A stretch of DNA of 64,000 bases from a virus. Location of the stretch: UHGV virus genome UHGV-0141727; one strand, given 5' to 3'. A model generated the notes under the pieces. The model did not search any database, was not told the DNA's origin, and worked only from the letters and a program-made list of their open reading frames with translations. Positions 41,210 through 48,850 of the stretch are shown one piece after another. How positions within the stretch are numbered: the first letter of the stretch is position 1; every line of letters begins with the position of its first letter. Made by a program: the position numbers and the translations under genes.

Positions 41210-42115
41210 TTAATGCTCTGCTTCACCGCCAATGGCCTCCACCAGCGAGCTAAACATCGCGGATAATTCGCTTGTGAACAGAATGAAGTCAGCATCAAAT
41301 CGCTGGGCAACATCTTCACGGTCGATGTCATCGTTCTGGTCATAGAGATCATCGCAAAACGTCAGTGCTTTGATGCTCATGTCATCGTTTAACCTGAAGG
41401 TCGCGCGGTCCTGCCAGTTGATTGCAACTGTTGTTGCAACTTTTCCGGCTTCAATATGAGTCATTATTTCCTCTGACTGTAGGTCTACTTTCTTGCAACG
41501 AACTGCGCCGCCGTCATCGAACAGAGATTTCAATATGGCTTCTTCGCCTGCTTTAAAGCCTTGAGGAAATGTTGACTTGAACCATTCGGTCATAGTCATT
41601 TCGAGCGGTTCTATCGGCGTGAATGGAATCACCGGAAGGCTGCCAAGTGATTTACGTAAGAGCGCCAGCATTTCTTCTGCTTTTCTGGCGCTGGAAGCTT
41701 CTACGAAGACCAGATAGTTGTCGCGATCAATAAGGATTCGCGACAATGATTTGCGAGTGAATGCGCGAGGCAACAAAGAGTGGAGAACTTCATCCTTCAG
41801 GGTGTTTTTTTCCGACTTCTTCAGCTTACGGGATTGCTCATTTTCGAGCTTTTCCACTTTTTTCTGCACTTCCTCCTTAATGACATGAGAGGGCAGGAGC
41901 TTAATTTCTCGCTGTTGCTGGAGAAGTAGAAAACCGTGGTATTCATGGATCAGGTTGTCAGCCAGAACCGGCACCCATCCGACTTTTGCCATTTCTTGTG
42001 ATGCGCATGGAGTGAATGTGAATTGGCTTAAGGCATCACTAACGGTGGTTGAGTCCAGTTTAATTTCGCGGGCAAGGCGATAGACGTATATGTTTTTAAA
42101 TGCGACCAATCTCAT
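41210..42115 (-). CDS. rdgC: recombination-associated protein RdgC
   Basis: 301 aa, collinear with E. coli RdgC (FKNxxVYRL, FTPCxSQxMAKxGWVP, LKDEVLHSLLPRAF, LALLRKSLGSLPV). Confidence 0.9.
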   Translation of the reverse strand: MRLVAFKNIYVYRLAREIKLDSTTVSDALSQFTFTPCASQEMAKVGWVPVLADNLIHEYHGFLLLQQQREIKLLPSHVIKEEVQKKVEKLENEQSRKLKKSEKNTLKDEVLHSLLPRAFTRKSLSRILIDRDNYLVFVEASSARKAEEMLALLRKSLGSLPVIPFTPIEPLEMTMTEWFKSTFPQGFKAGEEAILKSLFDDGGAVRCKKVDLQSEEIMTHIEAGKVATTVAINWQDRATFRLNDDMSIKALTFCDDLYDQNDDIDREDVAQRFDADFILFTSELSAMFSSLVEAIGGEAEH

Positions 42116-43832: not shown

Positions 43833-44600
43833 TTACCCCATTCTCAGAGAGGTTTCAGTAATAATTCGTTTCGCGTCCAGCTCCCAGGCGGTGATCACGT
43901 CTGCTATAACACTAATTGCCGTTTGTGCAGCATAAATACGCTCTTCCCCAATTGGGGCTGAAACATCAGTAAAACTGATGTCTTTAGCATCCTGAATCGC
44001 GCAAATTAGCGGGACGGGTACTCGTACCAGCGGGGTTGTTGCTTCAAACTGCGTTCCTGCCATCAAGCGAAGACGTGCTCCTAGCGAATTACACATCAGA
44101 CTCATGGTCGCCTTATCCGTCGCCATTAACGTAACGTCATACGTCAGATTTGCCTGGGTGTATTCCAGGGCTACTAAAGGCATACCGCTGCCAGGTTCGC
44201 AGAAGTGATCACAGCTTTTGCGGTCTATCTGCTGGTCATTGTTGATATAGCTGATATCCATTGAGCGCGAGATATTAATCAGAGGGAGCGCATCGCGATT
44301 AATGTTCGGATTCTCTGGCTTTCTCCCTTGCCCTGCATTAGCACGGCGAACCGCTTTAAGGAACTCGACCGCGTTATCAAAACGGGCAACATAAACACGC
44401 TCCGCTGGTGGGCGACTCAGGAATGATGCAAAGCGCCTTTCTTCTTTTGCTGGTTCCACCAGCGTTACGTCAGAAAAAATGTCGCTGATTAGCGTAGCAA
44501 AAGCGTTATCCACTCTTTCCAGACCAGTTGTCTGGAATTTTCCAGTACGCGTTGTCTGCCACTCGCCAATGCGGGACAGTAGAGTTTTGTTAGGTGTCAT
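43833..44600 (-). CDS. tail/baseplate-associated protein (unknown)
   Basis: 255 aa in the same operon, with 4-nt overlaps. Confidence 0.3.
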   Translation of the reverse strand: MTPNKTLLSRIGEWQTTRTGKFQTTGLERVDNAFATLISDIFSDVTLVEPAKEERRFASFLSRPPAERVYVARFDNAVEFLKAVRRANAGQGRKPENPNINRDALPLINISRSMDISYINNDQQIDRKSCDHFCEPGSGMPLVALEYTQANLTYDVTLMATDKATMSLMCNSLGARLRLMAGTQFEATTPLVRVPVPLICAIQDAKDISFTDVSAPIGEERIYAAQTAISVIADVITAWELDAKRIITETSLRMG

Positions 44601-45403
44601 TCGATCACTCCGTTTTGAGTGGTATCAAAGTTCCTGGCCGGGATGCAGTAATAAAGGGAACCAACGTGTTGTGTTCCGTAGCTGAAGATTCGATGCACGT
44701 ACCACCAGCGGCGGGCGAGGCCATTCGCCATTTCTTCGTTCCATTCCAGGATTGAACCAACAGGTACGTTGTTTGCAGCAATACGCAGGATTAGCACTTC
44801 ATCAGCAAGACCATCCTGTTCTCCATCGGCATCAATGGCATGAAACGAATCCCTTCCGTCCGGGTTATCTAGGACGTATACGATTTCCGGTTCCAGATAG
44901 GTAAGCTCACGCTGGTTGTTGTCCAGTTGCGTGAAAGACTCTTCACCTGTTTCATCGTTTACGACGCCATAGGTGCCATCAGCCGGGCGATATAAAAGCG
45001 CCTCGAATGCGTCAGGGCTTGATTCAATAATAAGCATCCAATCGGCGCGGATCTGGTCGTTGAACGCTTTGTGTCCGTTATATCGGGTTTTAAGCTGCTG
45101 GTTTGGTTCTCTGTTTGCGAGCGATGCCGGTAGGGGAGCGATGTCAGGTTCAATCACTTCCGTAACAGAGTCACCAGCATTATCAGGCCAATTATCATGG
45201 CGGCTATCTGCTTCGGTGGCAGCGCGTTCTTCCAGAATACTGAATGGCCCTGTACTGACCTTCCCATTTTCCGTTGTGCTTCCTTCATTCGCTTCAACCG
45301 TCGTTGTCTCTTCTCTCTGCGTGCTGTCATGTTCTGTTCCCTTTCTCATCAGGCTTGCATCATCAGCAAGCCATTCATCAAAACGGCCCATAAGCGTCCT
45401 CAA
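44597..45403 (-). CDS. acidic structural-module protein (unknown)
   Basis: 268 aa, first gene after the plus-strand insert. Confidence 0.3.
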   Translation of the reverse strand: MRTLMGRFDEWLADDASLMRKGTEHDSTQREETTTVEANEGSTTENGKVSTGPFSILEERAATEADSRHDNWPDNAGDSVTEVIEPDIAPLPASLANREPNQQLKTRYNGHKAFNDQIRADWMLIIESSPDAFEALLYRPADGTYGVVNDETGEESFTQLDNNQRELTYLEPEIVYVLDNPDGRDSFHAIDADGEQDGLADEVLILRIAANNVPVGSILEWNEEMANGLARRWWYVHRIFSYGTQHVGSLYYCIPARNFDTTQNGVIE

Positions 45404-45540
45404 AGGTCGATTTATCAGGTATAGAGGGGAATTGTCTGGAGATTGTGATTTGTTTGTCGCCAGGTAATTTCTTTAGATTGATGAGGCGAAATCTATCGGA
45501 GGTGCGGTATCATTGTTCGGTCAGAACTTAAGGAGAAACA

Positions 45541-46080
45541 GTGAGTCAGGAAGTTGAAAAGTGGCGAGCATTTGAACACCCTGATGGTGTTATTCGTGAT
45601 TTGTCATTTCTTGACGCTCATCAGGCTGTGTTTGTTCAGCAACAAGAAGGAAAGCAACCGATAGAGTATCGCTTTTGGGTTACGTACTCTTTTCACTGCT
45701 TCACAAAAGACTATGCACACCAGACTGAGGAAGAGAAACTGGCGTTAATGTACCACGCCCCTAAAGAGTCTCGTCCATTTTGTGAGCGTCGCTATAATCT
45801 TGCCAAACTTCACTTAAAAGAGGCAATTCTGTCATTGTCGGAAGGTAAGGTGATCCATGCCGGATACGGAAGCTATGCCGTTATTGAGGTAAATATTGGG
45901 GAGGGTAACAAGGAGTATTATTTTGTTGCGTTTAAGGCTTTCAGGGAAAAGAAAAAGTTGCGGTTACACATCACTAGCGCCTACCCGGTATCAGAAAAAC
46001 CAAATGGCAGGTCAGTGAAGTTTTTCGCAATCGCATACAATCTGTTAAGGAACAAACCGCTTCCTAAGCCACCAAAATAA
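45541..46080 (+). CDS. hypothetical protein, opposite-strand moron inside the baseplate operon
   Basis: 179 aa, GTG start 5 nt after AAGGAGA. Own upstream gap of 137 bp and a downstream hairpin. No family recognised. Confidence 0.6.
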   Translation: MSQEVEKWRAFEHPDGVIRDLSFLDAHQAVFVQQQEGKQPIEYRFWVTYSFHCFTKDYAHQTEEEKLALMYHAPKESRPFCERRYNLAKLHLKEAILSLSEGKVIHAGYGSYAVIEVNIGEGNKEYYFVAFKAFREKKKLRLHITSAYPVSEKPNGRSVKFFAIAYNLLRNKPLPKPPK

Positions 46081-46082
46081 CA

Positions 46083-46104
46083 AAGCCCACCTTAAGGTGG
46101 GCTT
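46083..46104. terminator. hairpin terminator between convergent genes
   Basis: AAGCCCACC-UUAA-GGUGGGCUU. The U-rich tail is better on the minus strand (UUGUUAUUUU). Confidence 0.5.
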
Positions 46105-46305
46105 CGCCAGAAATTATTTTCTGGTATTCAGAACGCCATTACCGGACTTTGCCTTGACCAAGTATCACAACTGGTTTGACCTGTTATGATAGCTGGTTGC
46201 GGGATGTCTGAATTTCTTCAGTCTGCTGCATCCTCGAAGGTTTGGTTCAACATGTACCATTCCTTCACCGTCATAATAGTGTACTATTCACGTCCTTGCA
46301 AACAC

Positions 46306-47511
46306 TTATACATTTTTTACGTTGTTCTTCACATACGCCATGAACATCTTTTCGGCTTGTGCTGGTGGTGTTCCTGCCATAACAAGCGCATCAATGAACG
46401 CCTGCTTCTTCAGTGCGAACTGATCAGCAAGGCGTTGCTGAAGTTCCTTGTTTTTCTGCTTCTCCCGTTGCAAAGCTGCTTCTTTTGCCGCTGCCCGTTT
46501 TTTCTGTGCGTCGGATAACTTTCTGGCCCTGGTCAGTTGGTCACGCAGCTTGTCGATCTTACCGTTGTCCTTTGCCAGTTTTGAGCTTAAAGCGGCCTGG
46601 CGTTTCTGATAGAGCTTCCATTCACGTTTAGCTGCCTCAACATTCGTTTTGCTGCTACGGTTTCGATTGAACGCCTTCTCGTCTTCTTTTGTGAAGTGTT
46701 TTGTCGTGCGGCGGCGATCGTCACCAAAGGCAACTTGCTTTGCAGCTTTTTGCAGGGCGCGAGCAATACTCATCTGCCAACTGGCAGACTGTAGTCGTGT
46801 CATTGAGTGGATCACATGTTTACAGGCGACGCCTTGCAGCTTAGGGTTGCGAACTTTTGGATAGGCGTATTCTTTTGGCGGGGCCAGGGCAAAGTTACCC
46901 GCAGTGGCGATGTAGCGATACCAGTATTGATGGCGACCGCAGTCACAGTCGAAAGACACTCGCCCGGCACACAGTGATTTTGTGACTTTCAGGGCTGATT
47001 TATCGTCTTCTGCGATGTCATCGACCATCTGATCCCATTCTTCAAAACGTACCCGGACAATGTGGTGCTGGTGAACGGATATATCGGACGCTTCCACGCG
47101 GATATTAATCACATTGTGACGAAGAGATACGGGCGTAGCTCTTTTGATACCAGAACCGTCGTCTACGGCGTTATTTGCTCGCTTAATATCGATAGCCTGG
47201 CTGGACGCTACCAGTTGTGCGTATGTGATGCCAGCCGTCTTGCTGTCATATTTTTCGCGTGCTTTGCTTCGCAGCTTTTCGAAGCCTTTCAGATCGTCAC
47301 GCGTAAAGAACGTGCCGCCTTTCTTTTTCCCCAGCTTAAGAATGTCTTCGGCTGATTTATTCCTAAGCCTGCCCGGCGTGAGTGTCCTGTGCGCCTGGCG
47401 GCGTTTGCGGTTTTGCTCTTTCCTGATGAGTTCAAATACGCGTGTGAAATCCTTAGAGGACAGACCGTTAGTGATATATCGCCCGTCCTGATTTTTCAGG
47501 AAGTCAGGCAT
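46306..47511 (-). CDS. SWIM zinc-finger-containing tail-module protein
   Basis: 401 aa with a CDCGRHQYW...CKHVIH (CxC...CxH) motif and a long basic coiled-coil C-terminus. Confidence 0.45.
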   Translation of the reverse strand: MPDFLKNQDGRYITNGLSSKDFTRVFELIRKEQNRKRRQAHRTLTPGRLRNKSAEDILKLGKKKGGTFFTRDDLKGFEKLRSKAREKYDSKTAGITYAQLVASSQAIDIKRANNAVDDGSGIKRATPVSLRHNVINIRVEASDISVHQHHIVRVRFEEWDQMVDDIAEDDKSALKVTKSLCAGRVSFDCDCGRHQYWYRYIATAGNFALAPPKEYAYPKVRNPKLQGVACKHVIHSMTRLQSASWQMSIARALQKAAKQVAFGDDRRRTTKHFTKEDEKAFNRNRSSKTNVEAAKREWKLYQKRQAALSSKLAKDNGKIDKLRDQLTRARKLSDAQKKRAAAKEAALQREKQKNKELQQRLADQFALKKQAFIDALVMAGTPPAQAEKMFMAYVKNNVKNV

Positions 47512-47925: not shown

Positions 47926-48207
47926 TTATGCGTGGGAAAATAATGGACGGATGTTTGGGCGAGCGGTTTGCGAAGCAACCCAAAGCTCATACTGGGATTG
48001 CATACCGGTCCACATTTCGGCACTGGTTCCAAGAGCGGACTCCAGACGAAGTGCCATATCAGCAGAAATACCTGTTTTTTCGTTCAGAATTCGGGAAAGT
48101 GCCGTGCGAGTAATGCCTAATGCAGCAGCTGCGTCTGTGACTGACATGTCTCCCAAATATTCACGAAGAACCGCGCCTGGATGCGCGGGATTATGCATAC
48201 GACTCAT
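47926..48207 (-). CDS. higA: HigA-family antitoxin (addiction module antidote), no cognate HigB adjacent
   Basis: 93 aa. [12 protein letters not shown]...[35 protein letters not shown] is the canonical HigA/VapI HTH pattern. Its start overlaps the upstream stop. Confidence 0.85.
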
Positions 48208-48503
48208 ATGTGGAAAGCAACCCGTTTACCGGTTGGCAATTCAACGTCCAGACTCAACTTTCCACCCATAGCCTCAACGTAACGTTTAAGCGTTGCTACT
48301 TTCAAGTCATTGCCTCGTTGTTCAAGTTTTGTGATGGCTGGTTGACTAATTCCCATCGCATCGGCAACTGTTTTTTGTGATAACTGAAGCTCCTCTCTCA
48401 ACATCTGCAATCCGACTTCCAGAATCATTTCATCAGCCTGCTCTTTGATACGAGCTTGGCTTTCAGGGGATTGCGCAGCAATAACTTCTCTTAGAGTTCT
48501 CAT
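48204..48503 (-). CDS. XRE-family HTH antitoxin
   Basis: 99 aa. [25 protein letters not shown]. Overlaps the toxin stop by 1 nt. Confidence 0.75.
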
Positions 48504-48850
48504 TATTTTTTCTCAAGTTCTGCAAGATGGTTGGAAAATTCGTCGTCTGCAATCCGTATCATTCTTTCGTAGAACTTTTTATCGTTACTCTTATCTCCGG
48601 CGCACAGGATTATGGCTTGCCTTACCGGATCAAATGCGAAGAATGCTCTGATAGGGCGACCAGCGTACTGAATCCGTAACTCCTTCATGTTTTTATGGCG
48701 TGAGCCTTTAACTGTGTCGGCATATGGCCTTGATAATGAAGGGCCATATGTTTCCAGATTGATCAGGTCAACCAGGATTTTTTCTTTTAATGCAGGTTCC
48801 TGTTCCTGGAACCATTCATCAAAAATTTTTCCAAAATAAATTTGCCACAT
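48503..48850 (-). CDS. RelE/ParE-superfamily toxin (phage gp49-like/DUF891 type)
   Basis: 115 aa. LKELRIQYAGRPIRAFFAFDPVRQAIILCAGDK is typical of gp49-like toxins. Confidence 0.8.
   Translation of the reverse strand: MWQIYFGKIFDEWFQEQEPALKEKILVDLINLETYGPSLSRPYADTVKGSRHKNMKELRIQYAGRPIRAFFAFDPVRQAIILCAGDKSNDKKFYERMIRIADDEFSNHLAELEKK

What the first reader, a model, noticed from the sequence alone, without database searches (positions are those of the whole stretch)
45404..46104. Opposite-strand orphan gene inside the baseplate operon
A 179-aa ORF (GTG start, strong AAGGAGA SD) lies on the plus strand between minus-strand structural genes. It has a 137-bp upstream gap and a hairpin terminator (46083-46104).

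I recognise no family. Features are a conserved-looking FHCFTKDY segment, ERRYNLAKLH (a weak R-x6-H, HEPN-like spacing) and a basic tail.

Morons in this configuration in temperate phages often encode defence, exclusion or lysogenic-conversion functions expressed from the prophage.
Basis: inference. Interest (0 to 1): 0.5.

Follow-up and report, generated by a model that had tools for sequence, protein, structure and literature searches.

The report
Phage-plasmid copy of yjaZ–SroH module
The "orphan" gene is a copy of the uncharacterised E. coli gene yjaZ, and next to it lies an overlooked small RNA (SroH) that accompanies this protein in very distant bacteria, so the two probably work as one mobile protein–RNA unit of unknown function.

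Summary
The 179-aa ORF (45541-46080, +) is real, with GTG start, AAGGAGA SD, 137-bp gap and hairpin as described. It is not an orphan. It passes NCBIfam's equivalog model for YjaZ and is 77% identical to E. coli K-12 yjaZ ("htrC"), a gene of unknown function.

It sits in an 873-bp cargo (45452-46324) between homologues of P1 genes 7 and 25 in a D6-like phage-plasmid. Most relatives carry type II toxin-antitoxin genes in that slot.

The hairpin at 46083-46104 is this RNA's terminator.

All 90 assessable loci found through the protein carry this RNA beside it, from Enterobacterales to cyanobacteria, Deinococcales and Planctomycetota. No protein neighbour is conserved. The RNA has a strongly covarying fold (98% of cells paired, 25 of 37 pairs compensatory) with a probable pseudoknot. 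It sometimes occurs without the protein.

Best reading, mostly inferred: a self-contained protein-RNA module, possibly toxin-antitoxin-like. The HEPN motif is not conserved, and a defence role is untested.

The parts
45452..46324 (.). Cargo island (873 bp) inserted between the homologues of P1 gene 7 and gene 25
   Evidence: Backbone homology to phage D6 ends at 45451 and resumes at 46325. Homology to the E. coli K-12 yjaZ-sroH locus spans 45527-46239 at 77% identity.
45530..45536 (+). Shine-Dalgarno AAGGAGA, 4 nt before the GTG start
   Evidence: Read directly from the sequence. Homology to K-12 yjaZ begins at 45527, so it includes this site.
45541..46080 (+). yjaZ-family CDS (179 aa). The N-terminal beta-rich half contains invariant Y49, H52, C53 and F54. 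The C-terminal half (about residues 78-179) is a helix, a 4-stranded sheet and a helix, with invariant R141, H143 and S146.
46082..46267 (-). SroH-like structured small RNA, convergent with yjaZ. The conserved core GGAUGCAGCAGAC starts at 46233.
   Evidence: Rfam RF00372, 113 bits (gathering score 80), E 2e-27, full length. My own covariance model R1 scores 136 bits and finds this as the only copy in the window. Structure supported by covariation.
46083..46104 (-). Terminator hairpin of the RNA, followed on the minus strand by UUUGUUAUU. The complement of that tail contains the yjaZ stop codon (46078-46080).
   Evidence: A terminator-like site is called on the minus strand only. Fold energy. 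The tail and stop-codon register are kept in all 46 aligned copies.
46108..46125 (-). Helix P5 of the RNA (CCAGAAA / UUUCUGG)
   Evidence: Five of the 6 pairs of this helix show compensatory changes.
46129..46132 (-). 3' arm (UCUG) of the proposed pseudoknot. It pairs with CAGA at 46222-46225.
   Evidence: Pair 59:208 of alignment A3 changes on both sides in 3 sequences: CCGA:UCGG once and CGGA:UCCG twice. All cells pair.
46273..46301 (-). Sigma-70-like promoter for the RNA: TTGCAA, 17 nt spacer, TATTAT
   Evidence: Consensus scan. The -10 hexamer ends about 6 nt upstream of the 5' end of the Rfam match. This is only a consensus match.
44597..45403 (-). Flank, not part of the module: tail protein, homologue of P1 gene 7
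   Evidence: PHROG 1906, E 2e-110. D6 orf69 annotation.
46306..47511 (-). Flank, not part of the module: tail protein, homologue of P1 gene 25
   Evidence: PHROG 1722, E 1e-195. D6 orf74 annotation.

Best explanation
What it is (shown): a two-gene mobile cassette carried as accessory cargo in a variable slot of a D6/P1-like phage-plasmid. It consists of a YjaZ-family protein gene and, tail to tail with it, a gene for a structured SroH-family small RNA of about 130-185 nt whose terminator abuts the yjaZ stop codon. It is a diverged copy of the chromosomal yjaZ-sroH locus of E. coli K-12.

Functional coupling (strongly indicated): the protein and the RNA work together. They are inherited and transferred as a pair across phyla, and no other neighbour is conserved. 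In some lineages the gene order changes (RNA upstream, same strand) yet the pair stays together.

How it most likely works (inferred, not shown): the RNA binds or otherwise holds in check YjaZ. YjaZ's C-terminal half looks like a RelE/BrnT/CdiA-type (BECR-fold) ribonuclease toxin. The pair would then behave like a toxin-antitoxin module with an RNA antitoxin, similar in logic to type III systems.

On the phage-plasmid it would serve plasmid/prophage maintenance or abortive defence. That is the role of the type II TA genes that occupy the same slot in relatives.

My confidence by layer: identity about 0.95; functional protein-RNA coupling about 0.85; toxin/RNA-antitoxin mechanism about 0.35.
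For: Identity:
- NCBIfam YjaZ equivalog passed.
- 77% DNA identity to K-12 yjaZ-sroH over 45527-46239.
- Rfam sroH above its gathering score.

Coupling:
- 90 of 91 loci fetched through the protein carry the RNA beside it. The one exception ends before the RNA site. Taxa include cyanobacteria, Deinococcales, Planctomycetota, Aeromonas, Pasteurellaceae, Vibrio and Glaciecola. Rfam's own model confirms this.
- In E. coli, sroH is in 3743 and yjaZ in 3741 of 5426 genomes.
- No conserved protein neighbour.
- A 31%-identical YjaZ homologue has the RNA directly upstream on the same strand. L085 has the same order.

Structured RNA:
- 98.3% of cells paired, against 83.6% in shuffles and 31-47% with slid partners. 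25 of 37 pairs have compensatory changes.
- G-U cells outnumber A-C cells 31 to 7, which fixes the strand.

Toxin-like reading:
- There is an asymmetry: the RNA occurs without the protein in 11 loci, but the protein was never found without the RNA. This is the pattern expected for an antitoxin and a toxin.
- The same slot in most relatives holds type II TA modules.
Against: - There is no sequence-level link to any toxin family.
- The RNA is a single structured unit, not the tandem repeats of known type III antitoxins.
- In E. coli K-12, sroH deletion mutants are viable, with only cell-envelope-stress sensitivity reported (PMC5389530, PMC13572404). yjaZ::kan is used as a neutral marker (PMC4666387). 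Neither fits a potent unchecked toxin.
- Chromosomal neighbours show no defence-island enrichment.
- Three more distant PF27200 members had no detectable RNA.
- No sigma-70 consensus promoter was found upstream of the ORF.
Confidence: 0.4

Rival explanations
1. Ribonucleoprotein or dedicated RNA partner without toxicity. YjaZ would be an RNA-binding, processing or chaperone protein for SroH. The RNA, or the complex, would do the work, for example a stress or envelope-related regulatory function. The phage-plasmid would carry it as a host-fitness (lysogenic conversion) cassette.
For: - The same coupling and structure evidence applies.
- The RNA is more conserved than the protein gene within E. 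coli: at least 99% identity in 3734 records for sroH, against 2942 for yjaZ.
- The RNA can exist alone.
- The K-12 sroH mutant is viable and has an envelope-stress phenotype (PMC5389530). One in-vitro mRNA target, kbl, is reported for SroH (PMC6172242).
- There is no defence-gene neighbourhood.
Against: - It does not explain the RelE/BECR-like fold signal.
- It does not explain why the cassette alternates with TA modules in the phage-plasmid slot.
- The patchy, horizontally mobile distribution on plasmids, phage-plasmids and next to prophage genes is more typical of selfish or defence modules than of housekeeping RNPs.
Confidence: 0.3
2. Pure cis-antisense control. SroH would exist only to regulate yjaZ, through convergent transcription and 3'-end complementarity, in the style of type I systems or par/Fst. 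There would be no RNA-protein contact.
For: - The tail-to-tail arrangement is fixed to the nucleotide: the yjaZ stop codon lies inside the complement of the RNA's U-rich tail in all 46 aligned copies.
- The hairpin has a T-run only on the RNA's strand, so yjaZ transcripts may read through antisense to sroH.
Against: - Antisense regulation needs no conserved fold. Yet the sequence and a covarying multi-helix fold with a probable pseudoknot are kept from enterics to cyanobacteria.
- In L195, L121 and L085 the RNA lies upstream on the same strand, where no antisense overlap is possible.
- No pairing signal with the yjaZ translation start: mean z +0.48 against shuffles.
- No conserved complement inside the CDS.
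- YjaZ is a 179-aa soluble protein, unlike type I toxins.
Confidence: 0.12
3. Passenger DNA. A piece of chromosomal yjaZ-sroH DNA was captured by recombination into a permissive intergenic slot and has no role for the phage-plasmid.
For: - Only 5 of 131 related plasmids carry it.
- The cargo is little more than the region homologous to the chromosome: 713 of 873 bp.
- No consensus promoter was detected for the ORF.
Against: - Other D6-like phage-plasmids carry yjaZ homologues only 73-74% identical in the same position, together with the RNA. This means long-term or repeated residence, not one recent accident.
- The ORF is intact with dN/dS 0.057.
- The RNA keeps its full structure and a promoter-like site.
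Confidence: 0.1
4. One reading: a stand-alone orphan defence protein with a HEPN-like R-x6-H active site.
For: Opposite-strand accessory position in a structural operon.
Against: - It is not an orphan.
- The H of the motif is not conserved.
- The predicted fold is alpha/beta, not the helical HEPN fold, and no HEPN protein appears among the structural matches listed.
- It is not stand-alone: it always comes with the RNA.
- No PADLOC match.
Confidence: 0.03

Closest known systems
E. coli K-12 chromosomal yjaZ (formerly htrC) - sroH locus, between rpoC and thiH
   Same: Same protein family at equivalog level, 77% identity. Same convergent SroH RNA with the shared hairpin. Same spacing between the two genes.
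   Different: Here it is on a phage-plasmid between tail genes, and the sequence upstream of the SD is unrelated (homology starts at 45527). The K-12 genes themselves have no established function: the 'htrC' heat-shock designation was retracted (PMC11551758) and SroH's function is unknown (PMC5389530). In the library I could search, no paper mentions sroH together with htrC, and none of the yjaZ papers I opened discusses sroH.
Type III toxin-antitoxin systems (ToxIN, CptIN, TenpIN)
   Same: A protein paired with an adjacent non-coding RNA gene, a terminator between or shared by the two, presence on plasmids and phages, and no protein antitoxin. A minority arrangement here (RNA, then terminator, then ORF, on one strand; L195, L121, L085) matches the type III gene order.
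RelE/ParE superfamily and other BECR-fold RNase toxins (HigB, YoeB, BrnT, CdiA-CT, colicin D)
Type I systems with convergent genes and a shared bidirectional terminator (par/Fst of pAD1, txpA/RatA); recalled from my own knowledge
   Same: Convergent protein and RNA genes whose 3' ends meet at one hairpin.
   Different: Type I toxins are small hydrophobic peptides and their RNAs act by base pairing. Here the protein is 179 aa and soluble, and the RNA has a conserved tertiary-type fold. The pair survives a change to a same-strand order.
Morons / accessory hot spots of temperate phages and phage-plasmids
   Same: Opposite-strand cargo between late genes, absent from most relatives, and replaced there by TA modules.
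   Different: The cargo is a protein-RNA pair, not a single gene. Its own promoter is not established.

Membership tests
YjaZ family (NCBIfam NF007263 / Pfam PF27200) | Score above the curated cut-off of the equivalog HMM, over the full length | tested here: met
   332.9 bits against a cut-off of 324; residues 1-179 match profile positions 1-179. Homologues carry precomputed PF27200 'YjaZ'. The local Pfam copy lacks this model.
YjaZ family (NCBIfam NF007263 / Pfam PF27200) | Family-invariant residues present | tested here: met
   All 20 invariant columns (for example Y49, H52, C53, F54, R141, H143, S146) are present in the window protein.
SroH RNA (Rfam RF00372) | Covariance-model score at or above the gathering score, full-length match with 3' terminator | tested here: met
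   113 bits against 80, model positions 1-161 of 161, E 2e-27.
SroH RNA (Rfam RF00372) | Genomic position as in E. coli: immediately downstream of yjaZ and convergent with it | tested here: met
   The RNA's 3' end is at 46082 and the yjaZ stop at 46078-46080. Same geometry in K-12.
RelE/ParE (BECR-fold) toxins | Sequence or profile similarity to a member family | tested here: not met
   No Pfam, PHROG or PADLOC hit. A profile search of PDB sequences gave only a weak SH2 match, E 0.11.
RelE/ParE (BECR-fold) toxins | Fold match to solved members | tested here: inconclusive
RelE/ParE (BECR-fold) toxins | Adjacent cognate protein antitoxin or immunity gene | tested here: not met
   No conserved protein neighbour in 84 loci; the largest neighbour cluster covers 7 loci of related cyanobacteria.
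RelE/ParE (BECR-fold) toxins | RNase activity or growth inhibition | not testable with these tools
   Needs expression and biochemical assays.
Type III toxin-antitoxin systems | RNA antitoxin made of tandem direct repeats | tested here: not met
   No tandem repeats in 45300-46450. The RNA is a single multi-helix unit.
Type III toxin-antitoxin systems | RNA gene upstream of the toxin gene on the same strand, separated by a terminator | tested here: not met
   Convergent in the window and in about 90 loci. The same-strand order occurs only in L085, L195 and L121/L176.
Type III toxin-antitoxin systems | Toxin of the ToxN/AbiQ endoribonuclease fold | tested here: not met
Type III toxin-antitoxin systems | The RNA binds and neutralises the protein | not testable with these tools
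   Inferred only from co-inheritance.
   R84 is conserved, but position 91 varies (H, Y or a gap) among homologues. The model is alpha/beta.
Type I toxin-antitoxin systems | Small hydrophobic toxin peptide and antisense pairing with its mRNA | tested here: not met
   The protein is 179 aa and soluble. No pairing signal at the translation start or within the CDS. Only the terminator region can overlap.
Phage moron / accessory cargo | Present in some and absent from other otherwise collinear genomes, between conserved genes | tested here: met
   5 of 131 related plasmids carry it. D6 has different genes in the slot.
Phage moron / accessory cargo | Own promoter and terminator | tested here: inconclusive
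   A promoter-like site is found only for the RNA, and the terminator-like site is on the minus strand only. By eye, TTGTTT-17-TAGATT at about 45451-45479 is a weak candidate for the ORF.

The most novel reading that the evidence does not exclude
YjaZ-SroH is a previously unrecognised, cross-phylum class of self-contained protein-RNA module. It would combine a RelE/BECR-like effector carrying an extra N-terminal domain with a dedicated pseudoknotted RNA that neutralises or guides it. That would make it a new kind of RNA-antitoxin (type III-like) system, used by plasmids, phage-plasmids and prophages for addiction or abortive defence, with a copy in the E. coli K-12 chromosome. It would also reclassify SroH from an 'enterobacterial sRNA of unknown function' to the RNA half of that module.
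Probability: 0.3. Interest if true: 0.85.

Novelty: new member of a known kind. Interest (0 to 1): 0.62.

Why it matters
Taken alone, the gene in the window is ordinary: one more copy of a catalogued but uncharacterised family. What matters is what the follow-up showed.

yjaZ is a "y-gene" of E. coli K-12 whose only functional label (htrC) was withdrawn. SroH is an sRNA known since 2003 with no function. I found no paper in the searchable library that links the two.

They turn out to be two halves of one unit:
- They travel together across at least four phyla.
- The RNA fold is as well supported by covariation as many riboswitch-class RNAs.
- The module sits on plasmids, on phage-plasmids and beside prophage genes.

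This makes both unknowns directly testable in K-12 with standard genetics: express one without the other, and test binding. It also gives a candidate for a new protein-RNA toxin-antitoxin or RNP class.

For phage-plasmid biology, it adds a non-protein-only cargo type to a hot spot otherwise filled with type II TA modules.

Tried and rejected
- Pfam, PHROGs and PADLOC scans of the ORF: no hits. tblastn against 50,697 phage records: no match.
- PDB sequence-profile search: only SH2B SH2 domains at E 0.11. I treat this as a topology coincidence.
- Foldseek against the PDB: nothing significant. The AFDB50 library was unavailable.
- Search for a conserved protein partner (antitoxin or immunity): none. 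Upstream small ORFs are lineage-specific or spurious. A Pfam census of 150 neighbours shows no recurrent family and no defence enrichment.
- SroH pairing with the yjaZ translation-initiation region: no better than shuffles, mean z +0.48.
- A 15-nt stretch in the yjaZ CDS (45718-45732) resembles the SroH core. It is the same sense, not complementary, and is not conserved in other loci, so I count it as chance.
- A small peptide inside SroH: the possible 11-codon ORF is in a different frame in K-12 and in the window (read from the and alignments), so the conservation is at RNA level.
- Tandem repeats or flanking direct repeats of the cargo: none meaningful.
- Distant PF27200 members (L223-L225): the RNA model finds nothing convincing, even with filters off. 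The coupling is therefore shown only for the clade at about 31-41% identity or more to the query.
- The original htrC paper could not be read. Statements about its phenotypes are left out of the argument.
- HEPN reading: rejected.

Full report
**1. The observation**

AAGGAGA precedes it by 4 nt. It lies 137 bp from the start of the longest ORF of the upstream minus-strand gene.

The hairpin at 46083-46104 is real and stable. With a second hairpin just beyond it, the fold is -25.8 kcal/mol, z = -6.6.

The flanking minus-strand genes belong to PHROG tail and baseplate families. The region is 84% identical to Escherichia phage D6, a P1-like phage-plasmid, where the flanks are annotated as homologues of P1 genes 7 and 25. 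It is 99.4% identical to an E. coli plasmid, pEC361_3.

**2. Not an orphan**

RefSeq names the gene on those plasmids 'stationary phase growth adaptation protein'. The protein passes NCBIfam's equivalog model for YjaZ: 332.9 bits against a cut-off of 324, matched end to end. Its homologues carry Pfam PF27200 'YjaZ', a model missing from the local Pfam copy. That explains the empty scan.

The window gene is 77% identical, in DNA and in protein, to E. coli K-12 yjaZ, which lies between rpoC and thiH. dN/dS is 0.057.

yjaZ is present in about 69% of complete E. coli genomes. It is listed as uncharacterised, and its old name htrC has been retracted (PMC11551758). In strain construction it serves as a neutral marker site (PMC4666387, PMC7160681).

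The family is compact and very conserved. There are 20 invariant columns in 44 sequences, including Y49, H52, C53, F54, R141, H143 and S146. A search of cluster representatives found 819 clusters at E up to 0.001, nearly all of them single-domain proteins of about 180 aa. The H of the 'R-x6-H' is not.

**3. It is cargo in a hot spot**

Against D6, backbone homology ends at 45451 and resumes at 46325, which leaves 873 bp of cargo. D6 has a RelE toxin, two HigA antitoxins and a hypothetical gene in that slot.

Among 131 related plasmids, only 5 carry this cargo. Most of those listed have HigB or RelE with HigA or HTH partners there.

Other D6-like elements, from Raoultella and from a Logan assembly, carry yjaZ homologues only 73-74% identical at the same position, followed by umuDC-like genes.

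**4. The missed partner**

Homology to the K-12 chromosome runs 160 bp past the stop codon, to 46239. In K-12 that stretch encodes the sRNA SroH.

Rfam finds sroH on the minus strand at 46082-46267: 113 bits against a gathering score of 80, E 2e-27, full length.

The hairpin at 46083-46104 is this RNA's terminator. The T-run is on the minus strand only. The complement of the RNA's UUUGUUAUU tail contains the yjaZ stop codon.

A promoter-like TTGCAA-17-TATTAT ends a few bases upstream of the RNA's 5' end.

**5. The pair is conserved far beyond enterics**

Rfam's sroH model reaches its gathering score next to yjaZ homologues in Enterobacter, Serratia, Pantoea, a large resistance plasmid and another phage-plasmid. 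Each sits in an unrelated context.

A profile built from 10 enteric copies then found the element directly downstream of, and convergent with, the yjaZ homologue in nearly all loci fetched through the protein. In one locus, L085, it lies upstream on the same strand. In all, 90 of 91 loci carry it, and the exception (L087) ends before the site.

The taxa include many cyanobacteria, Deinococcales, a Planctomycetota MAG, Aeromonas, Actinobacillus, Vibrio, Psychrobacter and Glaciecola. Rfam's own model confirms these matches at E 1e-7 to 1e-17, mostly below its gathering score, so they would normally go unannotated. No other Rfam family covers the site.

In E. coli, the RNA is in 3743 and the gene in 3741 of 5426 genomes.

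No protein neighbour is conserved. A census of 150 neighbours gave 180 Pfam families, none in more than 3 loci.

**6. The RNA is structured**

A MAFFT alignment of 46 diverse copies supports 9 helices.
- 98.3% of cells form standard pairs, against 83.6% after shuffling and 31-47% with slid partners.
- 25 of 37 pairs show compensatory changes.
- The covariation score is 0.41, against 0.14 after shuffling.

The layout is as follows:
- P1 (GGAUG/CAUCC) encloses hairpin P2.
- P4 encloses hairpins P3 and P3b. P4 appears as CGU/ACG, CGC/GCG, CAC/GUG and CAU/AUG.
- An invariant single-stranded GUUCUGAAUA follows.
- Then come hairpin P5 and the terminator.

The loop sequence CAGA can pair with UCUG in the single-stranded stretch. 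That pairing covaries in three sequences, to CCGA:UCGG once and to CGGA:UCCG twice. This is a probable pseudoknot, but thinly supported.

G-U cells outnumber A-C cells 31 to 7, which confirms the transcribed strand.

A covariance model built from this alignment finds exactly one copy in the window and none in the D6 locus.

**7. The reciprocal test**

I scanned viral and metagenome contigs with a 22-nt degenerate pattern from the RNA core. The scan gave 131 matches.
- 99 have a convergent YjaZ gene beside them.
- About 17 are partial chance matches.
- 14 are full-length RNAs without a convergent YjaZ.

Of those 14, three (L195, L121 and L176, the last two carrying the same sequence) have a YjaZ homologue immediately downstream on the same strand. 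In L195 it is 31% identical, E 5e-25.

The other eleven are RNA-only:
- cyanobacterial loci, several of them with restriction-modification or small toxin-antitoxin-like genes nearby;
- two P2-like prophage contigs, where the RNA lies next to an Ogr/Delta zinc-finger gene.

So the RNA can occur alone, while the protein of this clade was never seen alone. The pair also survives a change of gene order.

Three more distant PF27200 members had no detectable RNA.

**8. The protein's fold**

The AF2 model is confident: pLDDT 89.6, pTM 0.85. It shows a beta-rich N-terminal half and a C-terminal half made of a helix, a 4-stranded sheet and a helix.

Foldseek against the PDB gives nothing significant; its best hit is HigB2 at E 0.11.

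This is a consistent but weak fold-level resemblance. It is not evidence of membership.

**9. Interpretation**

Shown:
- the identity of both genes;
- their coupling across phyla;
- the RNA's structure;
- the cargo status of the cassette.

Inferred: the two products act together.

The most likely mechanism, at about 0.35, is a toxin-antitoxin-like module in which the RNA holds a BECR-like effector in check. The grounds are the fold hint, the asymmetry between RNA-only loci and the absence of protein-only loci, the mobile and patchy distribution, and the TA modules in the same slot.

Against this reading:
- the structural scores are weak;
- K-12 sroH and yjaZ mutants are viable (PMC5389530, PMC4666387);
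- the RNA has no repeats;
- the neighbourhoods are not defence-rich.

The main rival, at about 0.3, is a non-toxic RNP or dedicated sRNA-partner module.

Antisense-only control is unlikely, given the conserved fold and the same-strand variants.

**10. Limits**

- Loci fetched through the protein came from peptide patterns that favour relatives at 41% identity or more.
- E-values from my covariance model are rough.
- The literature check covers only the open-access library. There, no paper mentions sroH together with htrC, and the yjaZ papers I opened do not discuss sroH.

Noticed in passing
window 47926-48850 (minus strand): A second accessory cluster lies just beyond the gene 26 homologue. 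It holds a Gp49-like (RelE/HigB-type) toxin (48503-48850), an HTH_3 antitoxin that overlaps it by one base (48204-48503), and a further HigA-like HTH protein (47926-48207). The closest plasmid, pEC361_3, is annotated with a HigA antitoxin and a RelE/ParE-family toxin at the corresponding place.
   Followed up: partly
L095:6539-6708 and L101:2929-3095 (IMG/VR contigs): Full-length SroH-like RNAs (114-127 bits with model R1) with no YjaZ gene nearby. In both contigs the RNA lies next to an Ogr/Delta zinc-finger gene and a YhgA-like (Transposase_31) gene. The Ogr/Delta gene suggests P2-like prophages.
   Followed up: partly
L195:918-1632, L121:4659-5375, L085:5708-6525: Alternative gene order: the SroH-like RNA with its terminator lies directly upstream of a YjaZ homologue on the same strand. 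In L195 the homologue is 31% identical to the window protein. This resembles the type III TA layout.
   Followed up: partly
L104, L190/L217, L109, L103, L134, L129/L159, L145 (metagenome contigs): RNA-only copies of the SroH-like element at 110-162 bits, mostly cyanobacterial. Nearby ORFs include DNA methyltransferase-like proteins (L190/L217, L103) and small TA-like proteins (L104, L134). The functions are read from the ORF translations by eye and were not scanned against any library.
   Followed up: partly
L088:6001-8645 and L089:5600-8188: In two other D6-like phage-plasmids, the yjaZ-sroH pair is followed in the same slot by Peptidase_S24 plus IMS-family (umuD/umuC-like) genes. On large Enterobacteriaceae plasmids (L090-L094) a Peptidase_S24-like gene also lies just downstream. 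The association was not tested for significance.
   Followed up: no
E. coli genome hits H63-H73 (e.g. NZ_CP070962.1 3992260-3992396): In the RefSeq records listed, no feature is annotated over sroH. Within E. coli the RNA is more uniform than the adjacent protein gene: at least 99% identity in 3734 records for sroH, against 2942 for yjaZ.
   Followed up: no
L223:3544-4059 and L225:549-670: Distant PF27200 members have no detectable SroH-like RNA. They do keep a convergent terminator right after the stop codon, and L223 has a long (about 500 nt) hairpin-rich intergenic region. A diverged RNA partner is possible. In L223 the gene lies next to a type I restriction HsdR gene and a YgjP-like gene.
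   Followed up: partly
L024:108-324: A PAGEV RNA (Rfam RF03037, 125 bits) lies about 1 kb from the Vibrio yjaZ-SroH pair, on a short contig that also encodes an AlpA-like HTH protein (function read by eye). This suggests a plasmid or other mobile context.
   Followed up: no
window 45718-45732 and 46214-46228: A 15-nt stretch inside the yjaZ CDS repeats the SroH core motif CAGCAGACUGAAGAA in the same sense, 13 of 15 positions. K-12 has 11 of 15 at the same position. It is not conserved in other lineages and scores no better than shuffles overall.
   Followed up: yes
window 41210-42115 (minus strand): An RdgC-family recombination-associated protein (Pfam E 1e-100), equivalent to P1 hrdC, confirms the P1/D6-type backbone.
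   Followed up: no
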